From Squalus acanthias (Eukaryota), in the NCBI GenBank assembly GCA_030390025.1, contig CM059432.1, forward strand, positions 96,164,001-96,228,000: DNA of 64,000 bases. The letters run 5' to 3'. The position numbers and the translations under genes were made by a program. A model generated the notes under the pieces. The model did not search any database. It was not told the origin of the DNA and saw only the letters and a list, made by a program, of their open reading frames with translations. Shown here one piece after another: positions 28,056 to 43,173 of the stretch; position 1 is the first letter of the stretch, and each line of letters begins with the position of its first letter.

Positions 28056-28670
28056 CATAGAAGCATAGAAGATAGGAGCAGGAGTAGGCCATTCGGCCCC
28101 TCGAGCCTGCTCCGCCATTTAATGAGATCATGGCTGATCATCCAAATTCAGTACTCTGTCCCTGCTTTCTCCCCATATCCCTTGACCCCTTTAGCCTTAA
28201 GAAATATATCTAACTCCTTGAATATATTAAATGAATTGGCCTCAACTGCCTTCTGTGGTAGAGAATTCCACAGGTTCACCACTCTCTGGGTGAAGAAATT
28301 CCTCCTCATCTCAGTCCTAAACGGCTTACCCTGTATCCTTAGACTGTGACCTCTGGTTCTGGACTCCCCCACCATCGGGAACATCCTTCTTGCATCTAGT
28401 CTGTCTAGTCCTGTTAGAATTTTATAAGTTTCAATGAGATCCCCTCTCATTCTTCTAAACTCTAGCGAATATAAGCCTAATCGACCCAATCTCTCTTCAT
28501 ACATCATTCCTGCCATCCCAGGTATCAGTCTGGTAAATCTTTGCTGCACTCCCTCCATGGCAAGAACATCCTTCCTCAGGTAAGGCGACCAAAACTGCAC
28601 ACAATACTCAAGGTGTGGTCTCACCAAGGCCCTGTACAACTGCAGCAAGACATCCTTGCTCCTGTACTCC
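28056..28670 (-). mobile_element. CR1 3' fragment, same subfamily as 16030-20591
   Basis: Translation nearly identical to the end of 18488-20500; TGTGTG duplication at both ends. Confidence 0.95.
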
Positions 28671-28826
28671 TGTGTGAATTGATTTGTGATAAATTTATTA
28701 ATTTTGTTTGGAATCTTTTGTGGTGCCTCTCATTACAGCTTTGTGCCCAGGAGGACACTGTGATATTCCGTGAGACAGGGATGGTATGATGGGGATATGG
28801 TGCGCAACGGGGATCTGGGTTTTCAG

Positions 28827-30012
28827 TCATTGGAATCAGAGTCTGATGACCCATTCATGGACAGCCCATCTGGAAGGGAAATTGTCTGCCTGCCTCCTCC
28901 CTCCCTCCTCTTCCTCTTCCTCTTGCACCTCGTTCTCTTCCTCATCCTCCTCCTCCTCTTCCTCATCCTCCTCCTCTTCTCCCTCCTCTCCCTTGTCCTC
29001 CTCCTGAGGTGGTCCCACAATCCCTGGTGGCAAGGGCGGCGCCCTCATGATGGCCAAGTTGTGAATCATGCAGCAGACCAGCACAAAATGGGAAACCCGC
29101 ACCGCCGAGTACTGGAGGGCTCCACTCGGGCGGTCAAGGCAGCGGAACCCTTGCTTTAGTAGCCCAATGGTCTGCTCGATGATGTTCCTGGTGGAAGCAT
29201 GGCTCTCATTATATGAGTGCTGGGCACAAGTGTTGGAGATGCGGAGGGGAGTCATGAGCCAGGTGGAGAGCAGATACCCCTTGTCTCTGAGCAGACACTC
29301 TCGAGTTTGCTGTGGCGACTGGAAGATTGCTGGCACACCGGACTGACGCAGGATGAAGAAATCATGGCTGCTGCCAGGATAGCAGCCATTGACATTGAGG
29401 AATCGCTGTGTGTGGTCGCACACCACCTGCACATTAAGTGAGTAGTAGCCTTTGCGGTTACGGAAGATCTCATGATTGTTATGCGGCGCCTGCAAAGCCA
29501 CGTGTGTGCAGTCAATGGCACACTGCACCATGGGAAAGCCCGCTATCCTGGCAAAGCCACATGCACACCCCACCTGCTTCTCTCTCCTCAGAGAGAAGGC
29601 AACGTAGTCCCTTCTCCTGGTGTAGAGAGCCTCTAGGATGCAGCGATGGACAGCGAACTGTGAGATGTTAGCTATGTCTCCTACTGGTGAAGAAACTGAG
29701 GGCTATGGTGACCTTGACTGCCACTGGGAGAGCCGTGTTTGCCCTGCTCTCAGGCCACAGGTCTGGTTGCAGGAGGTGGCAGATTTCTGTGACCACCTCC
29801 TTGGTGAAGCATAGCCTCCTAATACACTGCTCCTCACTTCAGTGGAGGTAGAAGTGCTGTTGGAAGACCCTAGGTGGGTAAACCCTCCTGTTGAGAGCCC
29901 TCATGGCCCTCCTCCTCCTCCCTCTGTGTGCATGCACCCGTCATCCTTACTGCCTCCGCTTCCTCTGCTGAAGATCCTGGAGCATGAGGTCGACTGCCAG
30001 TATAGTCCCCAT
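28827..30012 (-). pseudogene. Harbinger DDE transposase, full span but frameshifted
   Basis: ATG at 30012; AIDCTHV, RKGYYSLNVQVVCD, YPGSSHD, DKGY, RNIIEQTIGLLKQGFRCL, CCMIHN. Confidence 0.9.
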
Positions 30013-30061
30013 GACTGTGAGCAAGTGTTGTGAGCAGAAGTCTTTAAAAAATAATGAAGGT

Positions 30062-31737
30062 TGTAAGGGGTTCTGTGTCGTGCTTGTATCGCAGACGGTG
30101 CTGGTGCGGGGTTAGGCCTTCATTGCCTAATACTACTGCTTGCTCTGGTCTCCGGCCAGCCTTGTTGCAATAAGCACCTGTGAGTGGTTCGACCCACTCG
30201 CCCTTACGGTTCTAACACTGGACTTAGGTGCGAGAGCAGTAATGCAGAGAAAAACTCAAATAGACTCGGTTGAATAGTACGAAATGGAAATCTTTATTGC
30301 ATAGCGTCTAAAATCATGAAGTACATATCATAGGCACAAATTAACGATAGTACAAGTATACATACATTCATAAAGCTTGGTCTATGGTAATGAAGAACGC
30401 ACGGCACATCGTAAAAAGGGGAACACATTATACTTTATCCTTAATAAAACCACCCTCCCCTATCAATACCTACACTACATCTAGATTTGTAGGATCGGGA
30501 AACATGCTCACCACTCGTGATACTTCGAAGAATTTTAAAGTGAGGCGCTCGGCTCGTTTCGCTGCAGCGCCTGACTGTCACGTGTTTTGAGGGGTCTCTG
30601 TACCCCACTTGTTTACTTTTGCTGCTGCTGCAAGCAGGCTGGGCTCCCCGTTGTCATGAAGAACTCGACAGTGCTCAGGCCCGGTTCGAAGAAGAGTCTT
30701 CCTGTGTCTGACACCGGTTGCCGGTAGAATTCAAAGAAGAGTCTTTGACCAGTTCGTGCAGTAACCTGTAGAGTTCAAAAATGGTCTATATATTTTCGGG
30801 CGCGGTCGGGGTTTACTGACCGCGGCGGCACGTGCATTCTTCTTCTTCTCTTCTCATCTCGTCTCGTCTCGTCTCTTCGGGCCTTCGGGTCCAGAACACC
30901 GTTTACCGACGCTCGGGATGGTGCACCCGGTTACCGGCCTTCGTCGAGGCGGCTCGTTCCGTTCGAGCTCCACCCAACATTCGAATAACCGTCCAGTGCG
31001 GCTAAAAGTCCAGAGTCAACAGTCCAGAGAAACAAGAGCACGAATCAAGCGAATAAGAATCGAATCAAGGGAATAAGAGAATAAGAGCCGAATCAAGCGC
31101 GCGATGGACATTTGTTGTCTATAGTTATAGTGTTGTGTTCCCTTATCTCCCGCTCAAATCTTAATGTTTGTCCTTTGTGAAATATTGGCGCTCAAAACTC
31201 CCAGCATGGGGTGATTCTTGTCTTTAACGGGTTTCGGTAGCACCTGAGACTGGTCAACTACCCGTTAATGTTTTCCCCATTGTTGAACCGGCTCGGAGCC
31301 TCCCTGGCTGGGTTTTGGGGGCCCCCGAATACTTGTTTAATCACCCGAGAATGGCTCTCTCATTGTAGAGCCGTTGGGGTATTTGCGTATTGATGTGTCT
31401 GGATGGGCCTTCGATTGCCCAGTACAATGGTCCTTACTTGTGCATGGAAAACGATTCCAGCACTCATATCTTATGCTATTGTTTCGAATGCAAACATGTT
31501 GCATCCTGTCTTTATCAATGTCTGCTGAGTATTATCCAATCTTATACTGAAATGTTTATTCGAACGCCATCTTGTCTGCCCACTGAAAATTCTGGAAGCT
31601 TCTGTCACGATGCGTGGTGGCCATTTTACAGGCTTCTGTGTCCTTTTTAATCATGACAGCATTTCGTTTAAATAAACTGATTAAACGAATCTGTTTCTCT
31701 CTCGTTATTTTGAATCGCGATAATTGCGAATTTTACA
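30062..31737 (-). repeat. 3' LTR (1676 bp)
   Basis: Direct repeat of 37642-39317; about 15 substitutions counted by eye, no indels. Confidence 0.97.
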
Positions 31738-31746
31738 GTCCCTCCT
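31738..31746 (-). promoter_or_regulatory. Polypurine tract
   Basis: Minus strand AGGAGGGAC immediately before the 3' LTR TGTAA. Confidence 0.75.
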
Positions 31747-32131
31747 GTTGATGCGAATAACTCTGCTTATCGTATCAATTAAAAGTGGTGGTGAGCAAAA
31801 TTATCCCGATTCTCCACATCCAAACACTCCCTTAACTTAAACTATCTATGGTCTCCATGCCGTCCTCATTTCCCGGGGAAATTACATTGTTTAAAACTTG
31901 GATAAACCGTAGGCAGTATTGCCTTTAAACTTACATTTCGCATACGCCTTCCAGGTGCAACAGGCCGATGCCTCTCGCACCACCTGTATATGCATTTTTA
32001 TTATACAAGGAAAAATAATCAAACAACCATTTTAAAAAATACAAAGTTCCAAACTTAGTTACATATCTTCATAACTAACAATCAATTGCAAAAACACACA
32101 TGGTAAAATGGAGCGGCGTCATCCTGGCCGT

Positions 32132-33619
32132 TCACGTGGAACTTTCCTCGTTCACGCGCACGTAACGTTCTCTCCACTCTCCTGTGTTCTCCTGCTTTGT
32201 GAGGCGTCTGCCTCTCTTGCAGTGCACGACCAATAGGTACACTACTATTATGACTTGGCACACAACTAAAATGTGGGAGGCTATCCTGATCCATGAAGGA
32301 ACTTCAATATTGGTGAACAGGTCCCACCACGGTGGGATCACTATGTCCAAAATTTCTGTCCCTATCTCGACAGACTTTTGTTCCAGGGTGTAAAAATGTT
32401 TTTGTGATACCGCAACGGCTTTCAAAAGCTTGGTGAGGTGCTCAGGGAGAGGGGGAATGATGTATCCGAAATGCGTGACGAATCGCTGCAAGTCGGTGAA
32501 ATTCTCTTTTACTGTGAGATGAACAGTGGATGGTTCAGGGATCGGGACAATTCGCTGTTGTGCCACTTGAACTTCAACCCTGGGTTTAAAACAGAAACTG
32601 CTGTCACTCACCGGACACCGGCTGCGGTTTCCATGCTGGTAGTGTTGCGCTGCCGTGGTAACGCAATATGTTCCACCCCCAATGTATGCCACCTGCGGAT
32701 GCACATGATCTTGTGTTATTGCTTCCATGGTGCAATTCATGGGCTTGGCGCCAGCCGTTCTGAACCCGCATTGTGGTGTTAAAAAGGCATTCAAGTGCTT
32801 GGGACACAGTATTATGTGTGCTCCCCGGCCATGACAACCCGATAGGTCGGTACCTGTCATCGTTTGCTCCCAGCGGATGACGTAAGGTGGGACTGCTGCG
32901 TAGCGAATGTGGGCTCCCCCCTGAATGACACCAATGTTCTCTACCCGATACACCGGGGCGGGCTTTGCTGTGTCGCCCAAGACCGGCATACGTAGTACTA
33001 TACCCATGATGGTATGGTTTGACCGTCCGCAGTCCACGGGGACTGGGTATGCCTCTGAGGCTAGCCTGAGCTGGCACGGGCTTAATGCGTTCTGAAAAGG
33101 GTGGAGCGCCTGCAGGTGTTTGTTACTTATCCAGGACGGGACCAAACCTTGTTTTAAATCCTCCAAATTACTGCAGCCCTCGCCCAGTAACCACGCCCCG
33201 TATAGTACGCACACCTCGTTCTGCGCAGCTTGATCGGATGCATTCCGATCTTCCCTAATCAGGGCATTTACCGTTCTCGCATACTTCTCCAGCTCTGCTA
33301 TAATCTCGTTTAAGTGTAGTGTCATGGCCTGGTCCTCATGTAACTCAGACCCTACTACCTTGTTTTCGCTTGTGAGGATGCTTTTTAATTGTGTTTTTAA
33401 ACCATTGATCTGGGTCTGCAGCTCCACGTTGTCTAGAGCGTTGACCACAGATGTTCCTGTATTAAAGGCGGTGAACATATCGTTCACAATACCCCTTCTT
33501 TGTCTCCCCACCTGACCCAAAACTTCGTGTGGTGTGGTGTACAAGCTTGTTTTGTCAATCTCTGCAAAATCAAACTCGTAGAATTGTCTGAACATGTTTG
33601 TCAACAGGACCTGGTACAA
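32132..33619 (-). CDS. env: Env C-terminal part: F-like class I fusion glycoprotein
   Basis: RQRR furin site (33494-33505), putative fusion peptide GIVNDMFTAF, heptad repeat, Cys-rich region, second heptad, W-rich segment, TM IASHILVVCQVIIVVYLLVV, tail with YVRV. Confidence 0.85.
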   Translation of the reverse strand: MYQVLLTNMFRQFYEFDFAEIDKTSLYTTPHEVLGQVGRQRRGIVNDMFTAFNTGTSVVNALDNVELQTQINGLKTQLKSILTSENKVVGSELHEDQAMTLHLNEIIAELEKYARTVNALIREDRNASDQAAQNEVCVLYGAWLLGEGCSNLEDLKQGLVPSWISNKHLQALHPFQNALSPCQLRLASEAYPVPVDCGRSNHTIMGIVLRMPVLGDTAKPAPVYRVENIGVIQGGAHIRYAAVPPYVIRWEQTMTGTDLSGCHGRGAHIILCPKHLNAFLTPQCGFRTAGAKPMNCTMEAITQDHVHPQVAYIGGGTYCVTTAAQHYQHGNRSRCPVSDSSFCFKPRVEVQVAQQRIVPIPEPSTVHLTVKENFTDLQRFVTHFGYIIPPLPEHLTKLLKAVAVSQKHFYTLEQKSVEIGTEILDIVIPPWWDLFTNIEVPSWIRIASHILVVCQVIIVVYLLVVHCKRGRRLTKQENTGEWRERYVRVNEESST

Positions 33620-34483
33620 TTATTCCGTCTCTTTGGGGCACCACTCTGGTAACCGCACCTTGGTGAGATTTAGAATCACCGAAGCCACCGCGTAATGTAC
33701 CCCTTGAAATAGTATCTGGTCCGTTGGGACCAGTACCAAACCATTCCCGGGCCCCTTAGTGGCTTTAGGGCACCCTTCCTCCTGAGCCAAAACCACCGGA
33801 ATCGTGGGCGGAGCCTTGCGTGGGCGCGTGATGAGTTCAGTGGCGTTTACCGGGATCGGGGAGAATGGGGCTCCGCACCCCTTTGTGCTGACATCCCACC
33901 TCATCCCTTTCCCGTTATCCTGCCACTGGTGTACGAAAAATATGGATATACCCTTGGGGCAAACGTACTTCGATCCCCACATACAAACATATATTCCCTC
34001 ATCCGGTTCCCACCATTTGTCCCAACAGACTTTCAATTGTCCGTTAGTCCCCGTAATTGTCCGATGGGTATTGTTACCCAATCGCTCCCACTCAACCGAG
34101 GAATTTCTCATAGTCTTGCTTAACTTCCATAACCAGCACCCTCGGCTCAATGGGACCTTCCCATTGCATGTCAAACAATTCCTTTTGCCGACGGTGACGC
34201 TGATTCTGGGTGCAATGATCCTCACTCTGGGGCACAGTAAAGAAGTCTCTTTGTAGGCAAATCCGGATGCGCTGAAGTATTCCGTTGAATTCGTTCCCAG
34301 CCATCCTGGCCACCTTCCCTTGTGGAAATAAGTGGCGGTCTCCTCAGCCTTTCGCTCCCCGGTCCCATCCGTCGCGATGGGGGCCGTGTCCCCGGAGCAA
34401 CCAAACACAACGACATCCTTAGTGAGGCCCCGATAGGCCAATCCATATCCGATCGTTGCGAGCACTATCAGAATCCTTTCCAT
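33620..34483 (-). CDS. env: Env N-terminal part: signal peptide plus Ig-like domain; in frame with 32132-33619 across one TAA
   Basis: MERILIVLATIGYGLA signal; CLTC...WLWK...DEGIYVC; several N-x-S/T sites. Confidence 0.8.
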   Translation of the reverse strand: MERILIVLATIGYGLAYRGLTKDVVVFGCSGDTAPIATDGTGERKAEETATYFHKGRWPGWLGTNSTEYFSASGFAYKETSLLCPRVRIIAPRISVTVGKRNCLTCNGKVPLSRGCWLWKLSKTMRNSSVEWERLGNNTHRTITGTNGQLKVCWDKWWEPDEGIYVCMWGSKYVCPKGISIFFVHQWQDNGKGMRWDVSTKGCGAPFSPIPVNATELITRPRKAPPTIPVVLAQEEGCPKATKGPGNGLVLVPTDQILFQGVHYAVASVILNLTKVRLPEWCPKETE

Positions 34484-34757
34484 CTTTCCTGGTTCCTGTG
34501 ATCAGATAAAATGATGTAGCCAGCCTCCCAAGAGTCTCTGGCTTTTGTGAAGGGTGAGCTGGTCCATGACCTCGTCTCACGTATAACGACATGTATGCTG
34601 GATAGACTTTAACTATTCCTATCACTAAAACTCCCATCACTTTACCATTTACCTTTAAAATTAAACTACAAACTTACCAAACTTACAAACTTAAACTTAA
34701 ACTTATAAACTTATAAACTTATACTGTACAGCGCCGCCCGTTCCCAGGGCGGCCTAC

Positions 34758-35837
34758 CTAAATTCTGTGAAGGCTGCCACGAGCTTTTCCCAGTGGTGGG
34801 AGGGCACTGACCCCTTCCTTTGATCTGCCACAGCCTGTCGCCGCTGCGCTGGGACTGGGATCTCCCTGGGCTGCCTTGAACTTGAACTTACGCCTGGGGG
34901 CGTACGGGGGACTTGACCACGACTTCCTGGGCTGGGGTGTCCGACCTGACCTACGGAGGGCTACTTTGGGCAAGATTTCCAGGGCCGACGGACCAGGAAC
35001 CAAGACTTCCACCGTCACGGCCTGTGGTCCTACCACAGCCGCTGGCTCCATCTCCCCTGGCTCCGCCCCCCTGAACTCGGGATTTGCAGCTTTTGGTTCC
35101 ACCCTACTTGGCCCAGTATGTGGTCCTCCACTCGCAATCCCTACCTCCCCCAAGGGCAAGACTTCCAGGGCCGACGGATCGGGTATCGAGACTTCCACCG
35201 TCACGACCTGTGGTCCTACCACAGCCGCTGGCTCCGTCTCCCCTGGCCCCGCCCCCCTGGGCTCGGGATCTGCAGTTTCTGATTCCACCCTGTGTGGATC
35301 TCCACTCGCAGCCCCTATCTCCCCTGAGCTTGAGTCGAGGACGAAACTTTCGTCCTCCGACCCCAGCACCTCTCCGATCGGGTCACTACCTTGGTCGAGC
35401 TCCTCGAGCTCTTCCTCATCTGAATCCCAACCCCAAGAAAAGATCCTACACTTTTCTAGAATGTCCTCTCCCCTCAAGCAGGCTGCTTTACCGGTCTGTG
35501 TGCCTTGCGGTCCTACCCGGGGCTGCGAGTCCCCACTCGCAGGTTTGGCCCCTCCCCTGAGACAGGCCACCGCCCCTGCTTGTGCCTTCTGTGAAATCTC
35601 GCCTGCTGGAGGCTGCAGATTTCTATTCTGTTTTAAATCCTCATACTCCCTGCTCCTGGCTACCCTGTAGGCTGCTTTTATGTCTCTAAGCTGCCCTTCC
35701 AGCCCGTCTACCTTCCCCATTAAACGGGCGTTCTCCTCCCGCAAGGTCTGCTCTTTTAACCTGGCCTCCTTACAGGAGACCACCTCCTGTGCGCGTCTTT
35801 CAAGGGGACACAGGCAGGCAGGCTGCACCGGTTCCAG
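34758..35837 (-). CDS. ORF2: Gag-like coiled coil, acidic/Pro-rich tandem repeat, basic tail; in frame with gag, no ATG at its start
   Basis: Open from the codon after the gag TGA for 359 codons; no protease, RT, RNase H or integrase motifs seen. Confidence 0.7.
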   Translation of the reverse strand: MEPVQPACLCPLERRAQEVVSCKEARLKEQTLREENARLMGKVDGLEGQLRDIKAAYRVARSREYEDLKQNRNLQPPAGEISQKAQAGAVACLRGGAKPASGDSQPRVGPQGTQTGKAACLRGEDILEKCRIFSWGWDSDEEELEELDQGSDPIGEVLGSEDESFVLDSSSGEIGAASGDPHRVESETADPEPRGAGPGETEPAAVVGPQVVTVEVSIPDPSALEVLPLGEVGIASGGPHTGPSRVEPKAANPEFRGAEPGEMEPAAVVGPQAVTVEVLVPGPSALEILPKVALRRSGRTPQPRKSWSSPPYAPRRKFKFKAAQGDPSPSAAATGCGRSKEGVSALPPLGKARGSLHRI

Positions 35838-37637
35838 TCAGAAGCCTGGGTTGTATGGGGCTGTTGCTACCTCCCCGTGCGAAATCATAAGAGACCGCAT
35901 GGCTCCTAACATTGATTCTATCGCATCGGGATGGATAGGCACACCAGCTCCTTTCTCAGAGACAGGCGCTTGGGTTCGGACTGCGGGAGCTCTGTCCCTG
36001 GGGTCCTTCCAGGGATTCCTGCAGTTTTTACGCCAGTGACCTGTCTTCCCGCACCCGTAACAAACACCACTGGTTTGGGGGGCGCGATTTCCCTCCTGAT
36101 GCCACTCTTTCTGAGCCGGAGCTGCGGGCTTTGCCTCATGCACCTTTCCCTTAAGGGGACGCGCTCCCATGCTCCTAGTGTTCCGATACCCTATGGTGAG
36201 TCGATTTAGGACAGACTCCTCTGTTGTGGCGGGGTTAGTGGGATCAAACCACGCTCTGGCCTGCTCCCTGACGGCTGGCAAGCTGTTGGCTACTAAACAC
36301 CTGAGCCAATGAGCTTTCCCGGCGCCGTTCAGAAAGTTGCGCGCTGGCGCACCTGGGCAGCTACGCTGGTATACTGGCCACAGCCTGTGGGCGAAAACCT
36401 TCGGGGGTTCCCCCTCCATCTGTATGGTTTGACTCAATCTGACGAACTTACCTTCGTCATCCGCCCCTAACACTTCTAGGACCTCGTCCCTTAACTCCTC
36501 ATAGGTTTTATTTCCCCTCTTGCTCTCGTCTGAGAGACACTGAAGGATCAAGCTATCTAATGAGAACAGCAACATTTTGGTCTTTTCCACATCGTCGCAG
36601 CCATTAATTGCTGCGGTCTGTTCTACCTCCCTAAAGTGTACGGAAGGGTCGTCTGATTCGGACAGCTTCCGTACATGGCTAATCATTGCTCTCAGCTGGT
36701 GTGAGCTGTGAGGCAATACAAGCTGGTCCAGGACATCCCCGTCCTCCCCATTTTCCCCATTCGGGCCTCTCTTGTGACCTCGGAGCGGACACATCGGTCC
36801 CGGGCTCGACTCTACCTCCAGGGATTGTCCTACCTCGGGGACCTCCTTTTCTATTTCCACCACTTCCTCCCTTTCCCAGGTTGCCGAATAGCTGGGTGAT
36901 GCGGAGGGCACAGTGGCAAATACCTCCTCTGCTTTGTCTGGTAGGGATTTTGGGAATTCCCTACCCACCTGTGGCTGGTTTGCTGACGGGCTGATGAGGC
37001 ACACCATGCCGTTTGCCGTATTCATGGCCTCTCTTAGGTTCCCTAACTCCTTCTGGCAAACACTGTCATCGGCTCCCTCATGCCTATCCTCGAGGGCCAT
37101 CTTATATGCCGCCCTAACTCCCTTCAAGCTTTCTTCCAGGGCTTTTATCTGGGTAGCTAGGCGGGCACACCGTTCTCTAATCCTACCCTCGTTTAATTTC
37201 GCTTCCGTGACCTGACACTCTAGGTAATCAATTTTAGCCTCGTGGTGGTTGGCTACTATCTGGCGTTCCTGATGTAACGCATTCAAGGATGCAATGAGTT
37301 TCTGTCCCCCCGTGACCTTTAGCTCCATCTCAACTTCCAATTCCCTGATCTGAGCTGCCTGTGCTACAATGACCTGGTCCGAAAGTTGGACTTGCTTCTT
37401 GTAGCACATCAGCCAGACCACTTTCTCCACCGACTTCTTATGCTCTTTACTGCCTGTCCATTTGATGGCTGCGTCTAGCGGACGCTTATCCATCAGTAGG
37501 TCACTTATCCACCTTTTGGTTAAGTTAACCTTCCCAATCACATAGTCGGCTACCCTCTCATCCATCACATTTCGCCGATTCACACCAGGGTCTAAAACAT
37601 TACTCTCTCGCTGCCAGTGTCCTGCCGCGGTCGCCAT
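35838..37637 (-). CDS. gag: Gag polyprotein (coiled coil, capsid-like region, one CCHC knuckle); probable start at 37565
   Basis: 599 open codons; CYGCGKTGHWRKNC at 36021-36062; LSQTIQMEGEPPKVFAHRL is an MHR-like motif. Confidence 0.9.
   Translation of the reverse strand: MATAAGHWQRESNVLDPGVNRRNVMDERVADYVIGKVNLTKRWISDLLMDKRPLDAAIKWTGSKEHKKSVEKVVWLMCYKKQVQLSDQVIVAQAAQIRELEVEMELKVTGGQKLIASLNALHQERQIVANHHEAKIDYLECQVTEAKLNEGRIRERCARLATQIKALEESLKGVRAAYKMALEDRHEGADDSVCQKELGNLREAMNTANGMVCLISPSANQPQVGREFPKSLPDKAEEVFATVPSASPSYSATWEREEVVEIEKEVPEVGQSLEVESSPGPMCPLRGHKRGPNGENGEDGDVLDQLVLPHSSHQLRAMISHVRKLSESDDPSVHFREVEQTAAINGCDDVEKTKMLLFSLDSLILQCLSDESKRGNKTYEELRDEVLEVLGADDEGKFVRLSQTIQMEGEPPKVFAHRLWPVYQRSCPGAPARNFLNGAGKAHWLRCLVANSLPAVREQARAWFDPTNPATTEESVLNRLTIGYRNTRSMGARPLKGKVHEAKPAAPAQKEWHQEGNRAPQTSGVCYGCGKTGHWRKNCRNPWKDPRDRAPAVRTQAPVSEKGAGVPIHPDAIESMLGAMRSLMISHGEVATAPYNPGF
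37619..37636 (-). promoter_or_regulatory. Primer-binding site complementary to tRNA-Arg
   Basis: TGGCGACCGCGGCAGGAC matches the 3' 18 nt (GTCCTGCCGCGGTCG+CCA) of vertebrate tRNA-Arg(TCG) as I recall it; 5 nt from the LTR. Confidence 0.85.
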
Positions 37638-37641
37638 TATC

Positions 37642-39317
37642 TGTAAGGTGTTCTGTGTCGTGCTTGTATCGCAGACGGTGCTGGTGCGGGGTTAGGCCTT
37701 CGTTGCCTAATACTATTGCTTGCTCTGGTCTCCGGCCAGCCTTGTTGCAATAAGCACCTGTGAGTGGTTCGACCCACTCGCCCTTACGGTTCTAACACTG
37801 GACTTAGGTGCGAGAGCAGTAATGCAGAGAAAAACTCAAATAGACCCAGTTGAATAGTACGAAATGGAAATCTTTATTGCATAGCATCTAAAATCATGAA
37901 GTACATGTCATAGGCACAAATTAACGATAGTACAAGTATACATACATTCATAAAGCTTGGTCTATGGTAATGAAGAACGCACGGCACATCGTAAAAAGGG
38001 GAACACATTATACTTTATCCTTAATAAAACCACCCTCCCCTATCAATACCTACACTACATCTAGATTTGTAGGATCGGGAAACATGCTCACCACTTGTGA
38101 TACTTCGAAGAATTTTAAAGTGAGGCGCTCGGCTCGTTTCGCTGCAGCGCCTGACTGTCACGTGTTTTGAGGGGTCTCTGTACCCCACTTGTTTACTTTT
38201 GCTGCTGCTGCAAGCAGGCTGGGCTCCCCATTGCCATGAAGAACTCGACAGTGCTCAGGCCCGGTTCGAAGAAGAGTCTTCCTGTGTCCGACACCGGTTG
38301 CCGGTAGAATTCAAAGAAGAGTCTTTGACCAGTTCGTGCAGTAACCTGTAGAGTTCAAAAATGGTCTATATATTTTCGGGCGCGGTCGGGGTTTACTGAC
38401 CGCGGCGGCACGTGCATTCTTCTTCTTCTCTTCTCATCTCGTCTCGTCTCGTCTCTTCGGGCCTTCGGGTCCAGAACACCGTTTACCGACGCTCGGGATG
38501 GTGCACCCGGTTACCGGCCTTTGTCGAGGCGGCTCGTTCCGTTCGAGCTCCACCCAACATTCGAATAACCGTCCAGTGCGGCTAAAAGTCCAGAGTCAAC
38601 AGTCCAGAGAAACAAGAGCACGAATCAAGCGAATAAGAATCGAATCAAGGGAATAAGAGAATAAGAGCCGAATCAAGCGCGCGATGGACATTTGTTGTCT
38701 ATAGTTATAGTGCTGTGTTCCCTTATCTCCCGCTCAAATCTTAATGTTTGTCCTTTGTGAAATATTGGCGCTCAAAACTCCCAGCATGGGGTGATTCTTG
38801 TCTTTAACGGGTTTCGGTAGCACCTGAGACTGGTCAACTACCCGTTAATGTTTTCCCCATTGTTGAACCGGCTCGGAGCCTCCCTGGCTGGGTTTTGGGG
38901 GCCCCCGAATACTTGTTTAATCACCCGAGAATGGCTCTCTCATTGTAGAGCCGTTGGGGTATTTGCGTATTGATGTGTCTGGATGGGCCTTCGATTGCCC
39001 AGTACAATGGTCCTTACTTGTGCATGGAAAACGATTCCAGCACTCATATCTTATGCTATTGTTTCGAATGCAAACATGTTGCATCCTATCTTTATCAATG
39101 TCTGCTGAGTATTATCCAATCTTATACTGAAATGTTTATTCGAACGCCATCTTGTCTGCCCACTGAAAATTCTGGAAGCTTCTGTCACGATGCGTGGCGG
39201 CCATTTTACAGGCTTCTGTGTCCTTTTTAATCATGACAGCATTTCGTTTAAATAAACTGATTAAACGAATCTGTTTCTCTCTCGTTATTTTGAATCGCGA
39301 TAATTGCGAATTTTACA
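37642..39317 (-). repeat. 5' LTR (1676 bp)
   Basis: Direct repeat of 30062-31737, adjacent to the PBS. Confidence 0.97.
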
Positions 39318-39903
39318 AGGTGTTCTCCACTTGCAACAACACTCTCTGTTACCTTATAACCTTAAAAGAAGTTAATAAAACTGGTGGAGTTGCAGAAAGT
39401 AGCAGAGCCAGTCAAACTGCATAACCATCTCAGGTGCAACTGATTGCTGATGATCCCTTTAAATTTCACTGCTGAAGCCTCCTTCCTGCTGTTGAACGCT
39501 TGCTCTGCCCATTGTTGTTTAGGCATGCTGGTAAGTTGAACGGTGAAAACCAATGGTGCAGATTGGGCATCAAGTGAGCGTATCACACTCACTGATGTTA
39601 CAATCTGGTTAACTTCAATTCCTCCAGCGATCGCGTTTATCGGCAGCGCAACTGGCCCTCGCAAAATGGCGGCCGCCGCGGGACCTGCTGGCGGAAGAGC
39701 ACCGGCTGCTGTTTAACGCCATTTCATGCAGGTAATGGGTGGCGTTAAACATCCAAATTTTTTGCCCAGAATCTATTTGGGTAGAGTTAAGGAGCAGAAG
39801 AGGAGCTGTTACGCTCCTGGGTGTGTACTATAGACCATCAAATAGTGGGAAGGAGATGGAGGAGTAAATTTGCAAGCAAATTTCACAGAGATGTAAAAAC
39901 AAT

Positions 39904-40759: not shown

Positions 40760-41858
40760 GAATCAGGGGGAAAACTCTCTACTGGCTGGAGCCATACCTA
40801 GCCCAAAGGAAGATGGTTGTGGTTGTTGCAGGACAACAGCATACCAGCACGAAGTGGGACACCCTCTCCGCCGAGTACTGGAGGGCTCCTCTCATGTCAT
40901 CTCAGCCCGAGGACGTCGCTGCAGGAATTCCTTAGGGCAGTGTCCTCAGCTCAAACATCTTCAGCTGCTTCATCAATGACCTTCCCTCCATCATAAGGTC
41001 AGAAGTGGGGCTGTTCGCTGATGATTGCACAGTGTTCAGTTCCATTCGCAACTCCTCAGATAATGAAGTGGTCCGTGCCTGCATGCAGCAAGACTTGGAC
41101 AACATTCAGACAATGACTATCTCCAATAAGAGAGAGTCTAACCATGGCCCCTTGACATTCAACGGCATTACTATCGACGAATCCCTCAACATCAACACAC
41201 TGGGGGTCACCATTGGCCAAAAACTTAACTGGACCAGCCACATAAATACTGTAGCTACAAGAGCAGGTCAGAGGCTGGGTATTCTGCAATGAGCGTCTCA
41301 CCTTCTGACTCCCCAAAGCCTTTTCACCATCTACAAGGCACAAGTCAGGAGTGTGATGGAATACTCTCCACTTGCATGGATGAGTGCAGCTCCAACATCA
41401 CTCAAGAAACTCAACACCATCCAGGACAAAGCAGCCTACTTGATTAGCACCCCATCCACCACCTTAAACATTCACTCCCTCCGTGGCTGCAGTGTGTACC
41501 ATCTACAAGATGCACTGCAACAACTCTCCAAGGCTTCTTCGACAGCACCTCCCAAATCTGCAACCTCTTCCACCTAGAAGGACAAGGGCAGCAGGCTCAT
41601 GGGAACACCATCACCTCAAGTTCCCCTCCAAGTAACACACCATCCTAACTTGGAAATATATCGCCGCTCCTTTGTCGTCGCTGAGTCAAAATCCTGGAAG
41701 TCCTTCCCAAACAGCATTGTGGGAGTACCTTCACCACACGGACTGCAGCAGTTCAAGAAGGCGGCTCACCACCACCTCCTCAAGGGCAATTAGGGATGGG
41801 CAATAAATGCTGGCCTTGCCAGCGACCCCCACATCCCAGGATCCAATAAAAAAAAAGA
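40760..41858 (+). mobile_element. LINE family B, 5'-truncated
   Basis: GLFADDCTVF, MEYSPLAWMSAA; same 3' tail and A run as 25616-26587. Confidence 0.85.
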
Positions 41859-43173
41859 GATTGTTCAGGTACAAACTAGGCAGAATTCTATGAGGGGGAA
41901 AGGAAGGGCATCCAAAGCTGGAGCTCCCTAAAGACATTGAGATTAAAATGAAACAGAAAAAGGAGGTTTATGATAAATAAAATGATAGAAAACCAAACTG
42001 AATATAGAAAGTGTAGAGGAGAACTGAAAAAAGAAATTAGAGCGGCAAAGAGAATATATGGGAATATATTAGTGGGTAACATAAAAGGGAAACCTGAAAT
42101 ATTTTATCAACATATAAAGAGTAAAAGGATAGTCAAAGGAAAGGTGGGACTGATTAAGGAACCTAAAAGGAAATCTTCTTGTGCAGGCAGAGGGCACGGC
42201 TGAGGTACTTAATGAATTCTTTGCATCTGTCTTTACTAAAGAAAAGGATGCTGCCAATGTTACAGTAAAGGAGGAGAGATGTGGAGAAAATAGACAGGAT
42301 AAAAATAGGTAAAGAGGATGTACTAAAATAGTTGGCAGTGCTCGAAGTAGTAACGTCACCCGGTTGGGTTGGAATGCATCCCAGGTTGCTGAGGGAAGTA
42401 AGGGTAGAAATAGCAGAAGTTTTGGCCACAATCTTTCAATCCTCCTTGGATACGGGAGTGATGCCAGAGGACTGGAGCATTGCAAATATGACACCCTTGT
42501 TCAAAAAAATGGAGAGAGATAAACCAGGTAATTACCATCCAGTCAGCCTAATGTCAGTGGTTGGGAAACTTCTAGAGACCATAATCAGGGGCAAAATTAA
42601 TTGTCACTTGGAAGAACATGGGTTAATAAATGACAACCAACACGGATTTGTTCAATGAAATCATGTCTGACTAATTTTATTGAGTTCTTCGATGAAATAA
42701 CAAAGAGGGTTGATGAAGGTAGTGCTGTTAATATTGTGTATATGGACTTTCAAAAGATGTTTGATACTGTGCATAGTAGAAGTGTTAGCAAAATTGAGCC
42801 CATGGGATTAAAGGGGCACTGGCACCATGGATACGAAATTGGCTAAGCAACAGAAAGCAGAGAGTGATGGTGAACGATTGTTTTTCGGACTGGAGAGAAG
42901 TATACAGTGGTGTCCCCCAGGGGTCAGTATTAGGAGCACTGCTCTTTTTGATATATGTTAATGACCTGTAGTTGGCTATAGGGGGCATAATTTCAAAGTT
43001 TGCAGATGACACAAAGCTTGGAAATGCAGTAAACAGTGAAGAGGATAGTAGCAGACTCCAGGAGTATATAGACTGGTGAAATGGACAGACACACGGCAGA
43101 CTAAATTTAATGCGAGAAGTGTGGAGTGATGTAATTTGGACGGAACAATGAGGCGAGGCAATATAAACTAAAT

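What the first reader, a model, noticed from the sequence alone, without database searches (positions are those of the whole stretch)
32132..33619. Env is an F-type fusion protein, not a classical retroviral SU/TM
Seen: RQRR is followed by about 450 aa containing the putative fusion peptide, a long heptad, a Cys-rich block (DLSGC...IILCP...QCG...MNC...YCVTT...CPVSDSSFCF), a second heptad and the TM. There is no immunosuppressive-domain or CX6CC motif. Known: classical retroviral TM ectodomains are far shorter, whereas this layout is that of paramyxo/pneumovirus F1 and baculovirus/errantivirus F. Inference: shared ancestry with those fusogens.
Basis: partly seen in the sequence, partly recalled or inferred. 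Interest (0 to 1): 0.85.

Follow-up and report, generated by a model that had tools for sequence, protein, structure and literature searches.

The report
F-type envelope of shark-like retrovirus
The envelope gene of a young, many-copy endogenous retrovirus, probably of a shark or ray, encodes a fusion protein built like the F protein of parainfluenza virus and RSV rather than like a usual retroviral envelope; this type is already known from foamy and loki retroviruses, and it also appears in two fish retroviruses, which hints that it is the older form of retroviral envelope.

Summary
Confirmed. The ORF is the 3' part of a 783-codon env (32132-34483, minus strand; one private stop) in a pol-less provirus with 99.1% identical LTRs. 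The predicted Env matches paramyxo-/pneumovirus F from residue 245 on (Foldseek E 2.5e-11; VIA Z 12-13) and has no ISD or CX6CC. F-type Env is published for lokiretroviruses and foamy viruses, so the kind is known. This lineage is probably not loki. RT trees place it among canonical retroviruses (99/97 and 100/97; AU tests p 0.17 and 0.08, not decisive). It resembles snakehead retrovirus (SnRV): best RT identity among the virus references, tRNA-Arg primer, one zinc knuckle. A family profile also detects SnRV-type, walleye (epsilon), foamy and loki Envs, but not gamma or delta Envs. About 225 extra N-terminal residues probably include an Ig-like domain (weak support). Sibling env copies are under purifying selection (dN/dS 0.11), consistent with spread by reinfection. 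The scan had noted the F-like Env and the Ig-like head before, on other copies in this genome. Verdict: new variant of a known kind.

The parts
37642..39317 (-). 5' LTR, 1676 nt, TG...CA
   Evidence: 1661/1676 identical to the 3' LTR, no gaps; K2P 0.009
30062..31737 (-). 3' LTR, 1676 nt
30058..30061 (.). 4-bp target-site duplication AGGT (partner at 39318-39321)
37619..37636 (-). primer-binding site, 18 nt complementary to the 3' end of host tRNA-Arg(TCG) plus CCA
35838..37637 (-). gag, 599 aa: coiled coil and one CCHC knuckle; TGA stop in frame with the pol remnant
   Evidence: (zf-CCHC E 0.0026, below cut-off)
34758..35837 (-). pol remnant: first codons of the protease region, a 258-nt insert resembling a Gag coiled coil (35553-35810), then the integrase C-terminal tail; RT, RNase H and IN core are absent
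32132..34483 (-). env, 783 codons, one in-frame stop at codon 288
34430..34483 (-). probable signal peptide (aa 1-18)
   Evidence: hydropathy; N-terminal helix; no signal-peptide predictor was run
33752..34429 (-). N-terminal module not present in paramyxovirus F or loki Env (aa 19-244); probable Ig-like beta-sandwich at aa ~83-174 (33962-34237)
33494..33751 (-). F2-equivalent (aa 245-330), ending in the furin-type site RQRR (33494-33505)
33620..33622 (-). premature stop, private to this copy
   Evidence: 0 of 29 other copies have a stop at this codon
32135..33493 (-). F1-equivalent (aa 331-783): fusion peptide (33428-33493), HR1 (33209-33436), Cys-rich beta domains (32588-32842), HR2 (32336-32443), TM (~32213-32296), cytoplasmic tail
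31738..31750 (-). purine-rich tract abutting the 3' LTR (probable PPT)

Best explanation
This is the env gene of a recently integrated, non-autonomous (gag + env, pol replaced) copy of a high-copy endogenous retrovirus of a cartilaginous fish. The lineage branches deep among canonical retroviruses (class III grade, SnRV-like). Its Env is a class I fusogen of the F type (subclass Ib). Shown by computation: F-like fold from aa 245 to the TM, a furin-type site, and selection for function in the family. Inferred from F-protein biology: the precursor enters the ER via its signal peptide, is glycosylated (10 sequons) and trimerises; furin cuts at RQRR, giving an N-terminal subunit (extra module + F2-equivalent) probably held to F1 by a conserved C282-C425 disulfide; on triggering, HR1 extends, the fusion peptide inserts, and HR2 folds back into a six-helix bundle. 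Paramyxovirus F relies on a separate attachment protein and this provirus encodes none, so the ~225-aa N-terminal module with its probable Ig-like domain is the likeliest receptor-binding part (inferred, ~50%). This particular copy cannot make a membrane-anchored Env because of the stop at codon 288; at most it would give a secreted N-terminal fragment. The family most likely spread by reinfection, with pol-less copies complemented in trans.
For: Fold: Foldseek PDB 1ztm E 2.5e-11 and 3rki E 2.5e-10, 245 matches at E<=0.001, all 37 listed rows F proteins. VIA Z 12.9, 344 aligned, model 245-668 on hPIV3 F 26-445. Profile of 36 sequences hits foamy Env chains in the PDB at E 0.001-0.004. Among 145 ORFs of 36 virus genomes it ranks walleye-type Env (E 5.6e-8), 13 foamy Envs (1.6e-7 to 0.18) and SnRV-type Env (4.6e-5; best of 500 shuffles 5.7 bits against 14.9) above gamma/delta Envs (E>=0.24, mostly on the TM helix). 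Loki-type Env scores E 1e-23. hhalign gives 98.7% for loki-type and 95.6% for SnRV-type Env, and the SnRV-type shares C238, C282 and C425. Lineage: sibling pol is PR-RT-tether-RNase H-IN. RT identity is 42.5% to SnRV-type L081, 32-38% to gamma/epsilon/foamy and 34% to loki-motif RTs. RT and RT+tether trees group it with canonical retroviruses to the exclusion of loki, 99/97 and 100/97. Both this element and L081 use tRNA-Arg primers. Family: at least 86 env copies at 95-100% aa identity, 48 of 86 with a stop-free frame of >=783 codons; dN/dS 0.11 overall, 0.07 in the F core, 0.18 in the N-terminal module, over 120 pairs of 16 gap-free copies.
Against: Model confidence is moderate (mean pLDDT 60.4, pTM 0.45; aa 14-232 unfolded), and TM-scores are 0.3-0.5 with high rmsd in many rows. 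The fusion peptide is weakly hydrophobic. AU tests do not reject a clade with loki (p 0.171 and 0.077). Integrase and Env score best against loki-type sequences (IN 234 against <=157 bits), though the IN tree is unresolved. The link to SnRV is an open fork in both careful trees and only 84 SH-aLRT in the quick tree. A profile of only the 15 closest Envs detects loki-type Env (16 bits) but not SnRV-type or walleye Env, so those two links rest on the more distant members. The Ig call is weak: model pLDDT 37.8, best Foldseek E 0.04, VIA Z <=5.6, no Pfam hit for the window copy itself. The dN/dS sample is the best-scoring copies and its pairs are not independent. Fusion activity, cleavage and receptor binding were not tested.
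Confidence: 0.82

Rival explanations
1. The element is a lokiretrovirus, or a recombinant with a canonical-type RT/RNase H and loki-derived integrase and env. Its F-like Env would then be the published loki Env plus an added N-terminal module, extending loki to cartilaginous fish.
For: Loki-type Env is the best-scoring outside Env (76 bits against 15-25) and loki IN the best-scoring reference IN. Dual RNase H is present. AU tests do not exclude a loki clade.
Against: RT motifs are LPQG/QYVDD, not loki's RCPFG/IYVDD. Two trees exclude loki at >=99/97. The IN tree gives no supported clade with loki. Cys and 'CP...GP' features are shared with SnRV-type Env but not with loki Env L119. The loki paper found 0 of 3 chondrichthyan genomes positive, and one exact loki RT pattern found no match in this genome.
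Confidence: 0.2
2. The N-terminal module is a gamma-type receptor-binding domain (modified IgV) captured from an orthoretroviral SU, making this Env a chimera of a gamma RBD and an F-type fusion core.
For: ESM Atlas features of aa 70-225 rank TLV_coat and Avian_gp85 clusters first (0.92-0.95). The gamma RBD-C is itself IgV-like and has moved between Env lineages (10.1101/2024.03.17.585361, passages).
Against: Only 139-166 of 256 features are shared, below the tool's 170 guide. The N-terminal profile scored no gamma Env above 0 bits (2 tested) and found nothing in PDB sequences. Fold searches returned host-type Ig domains, not MLV/FeLV RBDs. Weak Pfam Ig_3 or V-set hits favour an ordinary Ig.
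Confidence: 0.2
3. The env was captured fairly recently and directly from a paramyxo-/pneumovirus, baculovirus or errantivirus.
For: Best structural hits are those proteins.
Against: Identity is only 6-15% in those matches. By sequence only retroviral Envs are detected in the PDB. A Xenopus protein links a related Pol to the start of a related Env (P0045), which suggests an old pol-env association.
Confidence: 0.04
4. It is a classical gamma- or beta-type SU/TM Env with degenerate motifs.
For: Position in a provirus, a furin site and two heptads are common to all class I Envs.
Against: About 400-aa ectodomain after the cleavage site; no CX6CC or ISD; gamma/delta Envs score E>=0.24; F fold.
Confidence: 0.01

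Closest known systems
Lokiretrovirus Env (Wang & Han, PMC7947760)
   Same: Signal peptide, RxxR site, fusion peptide, coiled coil and TM; similarity to F (PF00523); collinear homology over aa 241-615 (hhalign 98.7%); dual RNase H in pol.
   Different: Loki Env begins at the F core right after the signal peptide, whereas this one has ~225 extra residues. The RT has canonical retroviral motifs and falls outside loki. Loki was not found in 3 chondrichthyan genomes.
Snakehead retrovirus (L081, whose RT matches the SnRV RT printed in the PMC7947760 supplement) and SnRV-related CmiERV lineage I of elephant shark (PMC4422223)
   Same: Best RT and RNase H scores among the virus references; tRNA-Arg primer; coiled-coil Gag with one CCHC; in-frame gag stop before pol; Env homologous from aa 225 to 563 with three shared Cys and a long N-terminal extension.
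   Different: Different Arg isoacceptor (TCG against ACG); TGA against TAG gag stop; Env 783 against ~1100 aa; no sequence similarity between the N-terminal extensions; sister relationship unresolved.
Foamy virus Env (PMC11468914; PDB 8ozh, 8rm0, 8rm1)
   Same: Subclass Ib F-like core; profile hit over the Cys-rich region.
   Different: Foamy Env has its RBD inserted within the F core and (recalled) an N-terminal leader peptide; here there is a probable signal peptide with the extra module N-terminal to the core; Gag has a zinc knuckle; the RT lies outside the foamy clade.
Paramyxovirus/pneumovirus F (PF00523), baculovirus F (PF12259), errantivirus F-type Env (10.1101/2023.10.26.564294)
   Same: Fold and domain order F2-furin-FP-HR1-beta domains-HR2-TM.
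   Different: 6-15% identity; encoded by a vertebrate retrovirus; carries its own N-terminal module instead of relying on a separate attachment protein.
Walleye epsilonretrovirus Env (WDSV, WEHV1)
   Same: Detected both by fold (BFVD E 1.3e-9 and 6.9e-8) and by profile (E 5.6e-8).
   Different: About 1200-1300 aa; epsilon-type pol, tRNA primer of another type; described only as neither gamma- nor beta-type in the passages read.

Membership tests
F-type (subclass Ib) class I fusion proteins | F-like fold of the ectodomain core | tested here: met
   Foldseek E 2.5e-11; VIA Z 12-12.9 over ~290-360 residues; predicted monomer
F-type (subclass Ib) class I fusion proteins | Basic cleavage site followed by fusion peptide, HR1, Cys-rich domains, HR2 and TM, with a ~400-aa ectodomain | tested here: met
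   fusion peptide only mildly hydrophobic
F-type (subclass Ib) class I fusion proteins | Trimerisation, cleavage and membrane fusion activity | not testable with these tools
   no experiment; trimer prediction not run
Gamma-type orthoretroviral Env | ISD and CX6CC in a short TM ectodomain | tested here: not met
   gamma Envs E>=0.24 with the family profile
Lokiretroviruses | Env similar to Mononegavirales F | tested here: met
Lokiretroviruses | Dual RNase H (tether + RH) | tested here: met
   sibling L033; shared with all retroviruses, so not diagnostic
Lokiretroviruses | RT falls in the loki clade, sister to canonical retroviruses | tested here: not met
   trees 99/97 and 100/97 place it with canonical retroviruses; AU p 0.17 and 0.08, so not formally rejected; only 2 loki-motif RTs, labelled by motif
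Lokiretroviruses | Integrase in the loki/CGIN1 group | tested here: inconclusive
   best score to loki IN; tree unresolved, no CGIN1 included
SnRV-like (class III) retroviruses | RT monophyletic with SnRV | tested here: inconclusive
   84 SH-aLRT in the quick tree; open fork; highest identity among virus references, 42.5%
SnRV-like (class III) retroviruses | tRNA-Arg primer-binding site (recalled as an SnRV hallmark; L081 checked here) | tested here: met
SnRV-like (class III) retroviruses | Coiled-coil Gag with one zinc finger; gag and pol in frame | tested here: met
   Gag sequence similarity to L081 not detected among the top 8
Foamy viruses | RT in the spumavirus clade; Gag without zinc knuckle | tested here: not met
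Immunoglobulin superfamily (N-terminal module) | Ig beta-sandwich with Cys-Trp-Cys core | tested here: inconclusive
   Pfam Ig_3 in 19 of 22 aligned members at E<=1, best 6e-4, all below cut-off, none for the window copy; 49 of 50 VIA rows are antibody or Ig-superfamily entries but Z 4.8-5.6; model pLDDT ~55-60 over the strands

The most novel reading that the evidence does not exclude
The F-type fusogen is the ancestral retroviral envelope. It is present in loki, foamy, SnRV-like (this family and SnRV) and walleye epsilon retroviruses, each with a different receptor-binding module bolted onto one shared core (here an Ig-like domain at the N-terminus), while gamma- and beta-type SU/TM is a later replacement. 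This shark family bridges these Envs at the sequence level, which makes an Env phylogeny across Retroviridae and Mononegavirales feasible.
Probability: 0.4. Interest if true: 0.8.

Novelty: new variant of a known kind. Interest (0 to 1): 0.55.

Why it matters
The origin of retroviral env is an open question: Wang & Han list four scenarios and later prefer independent acquisition by loki and canonical retroviruses (PMC7947760, PMC9040795). An F-type Env that is detectably homologous to loki Env, but sits in a lineage whose RT groups with canonical retroviruses, weighs towards a shared origin or an early exchange. Its detectable links to SnRV, walleye and foamy Envs widen that. The family is young, numerous and under purifying selection, so it offers many natural variants of a minimal F core plus one N-terminal module for structural work. 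ERV surveys keyed to gamma/beta TM motifs would miss such Envs.

Tried and rejected
Single-sequence Pfam and PDB searches with the ORF gave no F hit; one distant own-genome relative gave Fusion_gly at E 0.035. My first guess, lokiretrovirus, was lowered after the RT comparisons. A loki+family clade was not rejected by AU, and a family+SnRV clade on integrase was not rejected either (p 0.37), so neither recombination nor congruence is shown. Programmed readthrough of the env stop was rejected: 0 of 29 other copies have it. A domesticated single-copy host gene was rejected: paired young LTRs, a TSD and >=86 copies. The search for related loci in viral contigs found nothing with the RT and could not run with the Env alignment. 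An exact loki RT pattern had no match in the own genome (no proof of absence). The N-terminal profile gave no PDB sequence hit and did not match the N-terminal parts of distant Envs or SnRV-type Env; Pfam found no Ig in SnRV-type Env, although a C-W-(Y)xC spacing is visible by eye. No MLV/FeLV RBD appeared in the listed rows of the N-terminal fold searches. Expression: no RNA holder listed; contigs of four runs only guessed to be RNA (2 organisms, 2 studies) cover the whole provirus, which shows related sequence but not transcription. No trimer job was run: the unbroken ORF lacks the F2 strand, and a pass would mostly reflect likeness to solved F trimers. Literature searches for F-like SnRV or walleye Env and for loki in sharks gave no paper stating it; Calcraft 2024 (Cell) and Nino Barreat & Katzourakis 2024 were seen only as citations and may cover it.

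Full report
OBSERVATION. The finding's coordinates are a 495-codon ORF on the minus strand. It is the 3' part of an env that starts at 34483 and has one in-frame stop at codon 288; read through with X it is 783 residues. RQRR lies at 327-330, 453 residues follow, the quoted cysteines are present, and there is no CX6CC or ISD-like motif. The seven cysteines of the block are conserved in 19-23 of the 21-26 homologues covering each column. The fusion peptide is only mildly hydrophobic.

CONTEXT. env lies in a 9.3-kb provirus: LTRs 30062-31737 and 37642-39317 (1676 nt, 15 differences, K2P 0.009), a 4-bp target duplication and a purine tract, and an 18-nt primer site complementary to host tRNA-Arg(TCG). 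gag (599 aa, coiled coil, one CCHC) is followed in frame by a pol remnant in which RT, RNase H and the IN core are replaced by a 258-nt Gag-like insert, shared with both other short copies examined. Three siblings carry PR-RT-tether-RNase H, two of them also IN, each interrupted or cut short in the stretch fetched. The genome (3.7 Gb) has at least 86 env copies at 95-100% aa identity (a floor), and 48 of 86 have a stop-free frame of >=783 codons. None of 29 fetched copies shares this stop. Among the 16 gap-free copies of those 29, dN/dS is 0.11 (F core 0.07, N-terminal module 0.18; 120 non-independent pairs of best-scoring copies), which points to spread through functional Env. All 3 of 4 named hits of one protein search were from a sawshark and 1 from a skate, so the host is inferred to be a cartilaginous fish.

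FOLD. Single-sequence searches gave no F match. An AlphaFold2 model from a 36-sequence alignment (mean pLDDT 60.4; mostly 80-95 over aa 241-310 and 421-650; aa 14-232 unfolded) matched hPIV3 F at E 2.5e-11 and RSV F at 2.5e-10, and all 37 listed rows are F proteins. VIA-align gave Z 12.9 (344 aligned, rmsd 17.7), 12.5 (331, rmsd 6.7) and 12.0 (288, rmsd 5.5), with model residue ~245 aligned to the start of F2. In BFVD the hits were lispivirus glycoproteins, baculovirus F, paramyxovirus F0, WEHV1 Env (rank 18), WDSV Env (rank 30) and feline foamy Env (rank 47). ESM Atlas features gave Gypsy/Baculo_F/Fusion_gly, with recognition below the tool's guide value.

RELATIVES BY SEQUENCE. The family profile hits foamy Env chains in the PDB (E 0.001-0.004). 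Against 145 ORFs from 36 virus genomes it ranks walleye-type Env (L112, E 5.6e-8), 13 foamy Envs (1.6e-7 to 0.18) and the Env of L081 (4.6e-5; 14.9 bits against at most 5.7 in 500 shuffles) above all gamma and delta Envs (>=0.24). L081 and L112 carry the SnRV and WDSV RT text printed in the supplement of PMC7947760. Two loki-motif elements (L117, L119) have the best-scoring Envs (E 1e-21 and 1e-23). hhalign confirms collinearity with both loki-type (98.7%) and SnRV-type Env (95.6%); the latter also shares C238, C282 and C425 and has a long N-terminal extension, while loki Env starts directly at the core. A profile of only the 15 closest members keeps the loki link but loses SnRV and walleye.

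LINEAGE. Sibling RT has LPQG/QYVDD and is 42.5% identical to L081, 32-38% to foamy, epsilon and gamma, and 34% to loki-motif RTs (82 of 243 candidate ORFs had a full RT). Careful trees on 39 RT rows and 37 RT+tether rows (near-duplicates and most gypsy rows left out) place it, with Xenopus and Latimeria elements, among canonical retroviruses to the exclusion of loki (99/97 and 100/97). AU tests do not reject a loki clade (p 0.171, 0.077), and SnRV is an open fork. RNase H scores best to L081 and integrase best to loki; the IN tree (31 of 46 rows) is unresolved. L081 also uses a tRNA-Arg primer, the ACG isoacceptor. I call the element SnRV-like/class III grade (~0.75), not a member of loki. SnRV-related ERVs are known from elephant shark (PMC4422223, first part read); loki was found in 0 of 3 chondrichthyan genomes.

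N-TERMINAL MODULE. aa 19-244 has no counterpart in paramyxovirus F or loki Env. Pfam Ig_3 is hit weakly by 19 of 22 aligned members (best E 6e-4, all below cut-off, not by the window copy). A low-confidence model (pLDDT 37.8; seven strands over aa ~83-174) returns almost only Ig-type entries, but at E>=0.04 and Z<=5.6. ESM features instead point to gamma/alpha SU, whose RBD is itself IgV-like (10.1101/2024.03.17.585361, passages). An Ig-like fold is probable (~0.65); receptor binding is inference (~0.5), by analogy with subclass Ib fusogens that add binding modules to the minimal F scaffold (PMC11468914, passages).

MECHANISM. Shown: architecture, fold homology, selection in the family, and loss of function in this copy. 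Inferred from established F-protein biology: secretion, trimerisation, furin priming, an F2-F1 disulfide, receptor engagement through the N-terminal module, HR1 extension, fusion-peptide insertion and six-helix-bundle collapse. Pol-less copies would be mobilised in trans.

NOVELTY. F-type Env in retroelements is in print: loki (PMC7947760, parts 1-3 of 4 and supplement searches), foamy viruses (PMC11468914, passages), errantiviruses (10.1101/2023.10.26.564294, abstract and first part of section 6) and a Viro3D survey (PMC12583693, passages). Also seen as passages: PMC9040795, PMC12440569, PMC13709493, PMC10435555, PMC2717909, PMC5210030, 10.1101/2021.11.05.467493, 10.1101/2024.03.25.586437; 10.1101/2021.11.23.469661 as abstract and one results part; PMC6001957 as a listing only. 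I did not find an F-type Env described for SnRV-like or walleye retroviruses or for shark ERVs, but Calcraft 2024 and Nino Barreat & Katzourakis 2024 were not read, bioRxiv supplements are closed, and most subscription journals are not searched. This scan had already noted the F-like Env and the Ig-like head on other copies in this genome; these are not independent evidence, and a second look-up found no note naming snakehead retrovirus. Verdict: real; new variant of a known kind; interest 0.55, rising to ~0.8 if F-type Env proves ancestral for retroviruses (probability ~0.4).

Noticed in passing
window 35553-35810 (-); L034, L035: In place of pol there is a 258-nt insert whose product resembles the element's own Gag coiled coil (40% over 43 aa, E 6e-7). 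The same insert is in both other short copies examined (92-97% nt), so one event founded a non-autonomous subfamily. Reading by eye, 9 of 11 other copies with both gag and env listed have the short ~2.2-kb spacing.
   Followed up: partly
L081:6131-9535: SnRV-type Env is homologous to this Env over the F core (hhalign 95.6%, E 1e-8) and has a long N-terminal extension; I found no paper describing SnRV Env as F-type.
   Followed up: partly
L112 env ORF; BFVD Q9WHI8, A4GTG3: Walleye epsilonretrovirus Envs score as F-like by fold and by profile.
   Followed up: partly
L036-L050 and L051-L080: The genome holds at least two further families with related Env: one ~57% identical in the N-terminal module (123 matches) and more distant ones related to P0009 (83 matches).
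   Followed up: partly
P0045, P0018, P0036: A Xenopus tropicalis protein joins a related Pol to the start of an Env resembling P0018, with a weak Ig_3 hit (E 0.062); P0036 has a weak V-set hit (E 0.045). Ig-headed F-type Envs may extend beyond cartilaginous fish.
   Followed up: partly
BFVD A0A2P1GML9, A0A145VUZ2: A fish filovirus glycoprotein (Wenling thamnaconus) and an abalone herpesvirus protein rank among the top structural matches to this Env.
   Followed up: no
window 37619-37641 (-): The gag ATG overlaps the primer-binding site, which lies 5 nt from the LTR end.
   Followed up: no
window 34484-34720 (-): A T/A-rich repetitive spacer between the pol remnant and env, with a possible splice acceptor about 12 nt before the env ATG (by eye).
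   Followed up: no
window 34968-35291: A 138-nt direct repeat (89% identical, spacing 186) in the integrase-tail region; copy number differs among siblings.
   Followed up: no
G000:C26, ~39-42 Mb: Long tandem arrays (~1.62-kb period) of tRNA-Arg(TCG) genes; 426 pattern matches genome-wide. This is the primer the element uses.
   Followed up: partly
window 18467-20500, 25600-26600, 28148-29702, 40900-41900: Flanks contain RT-bearing LINE-like ORFs (CR1-like, recalled) and a Harbinger-like nuclease fragment (recalled); ordinary repeats.
   Followed up: no
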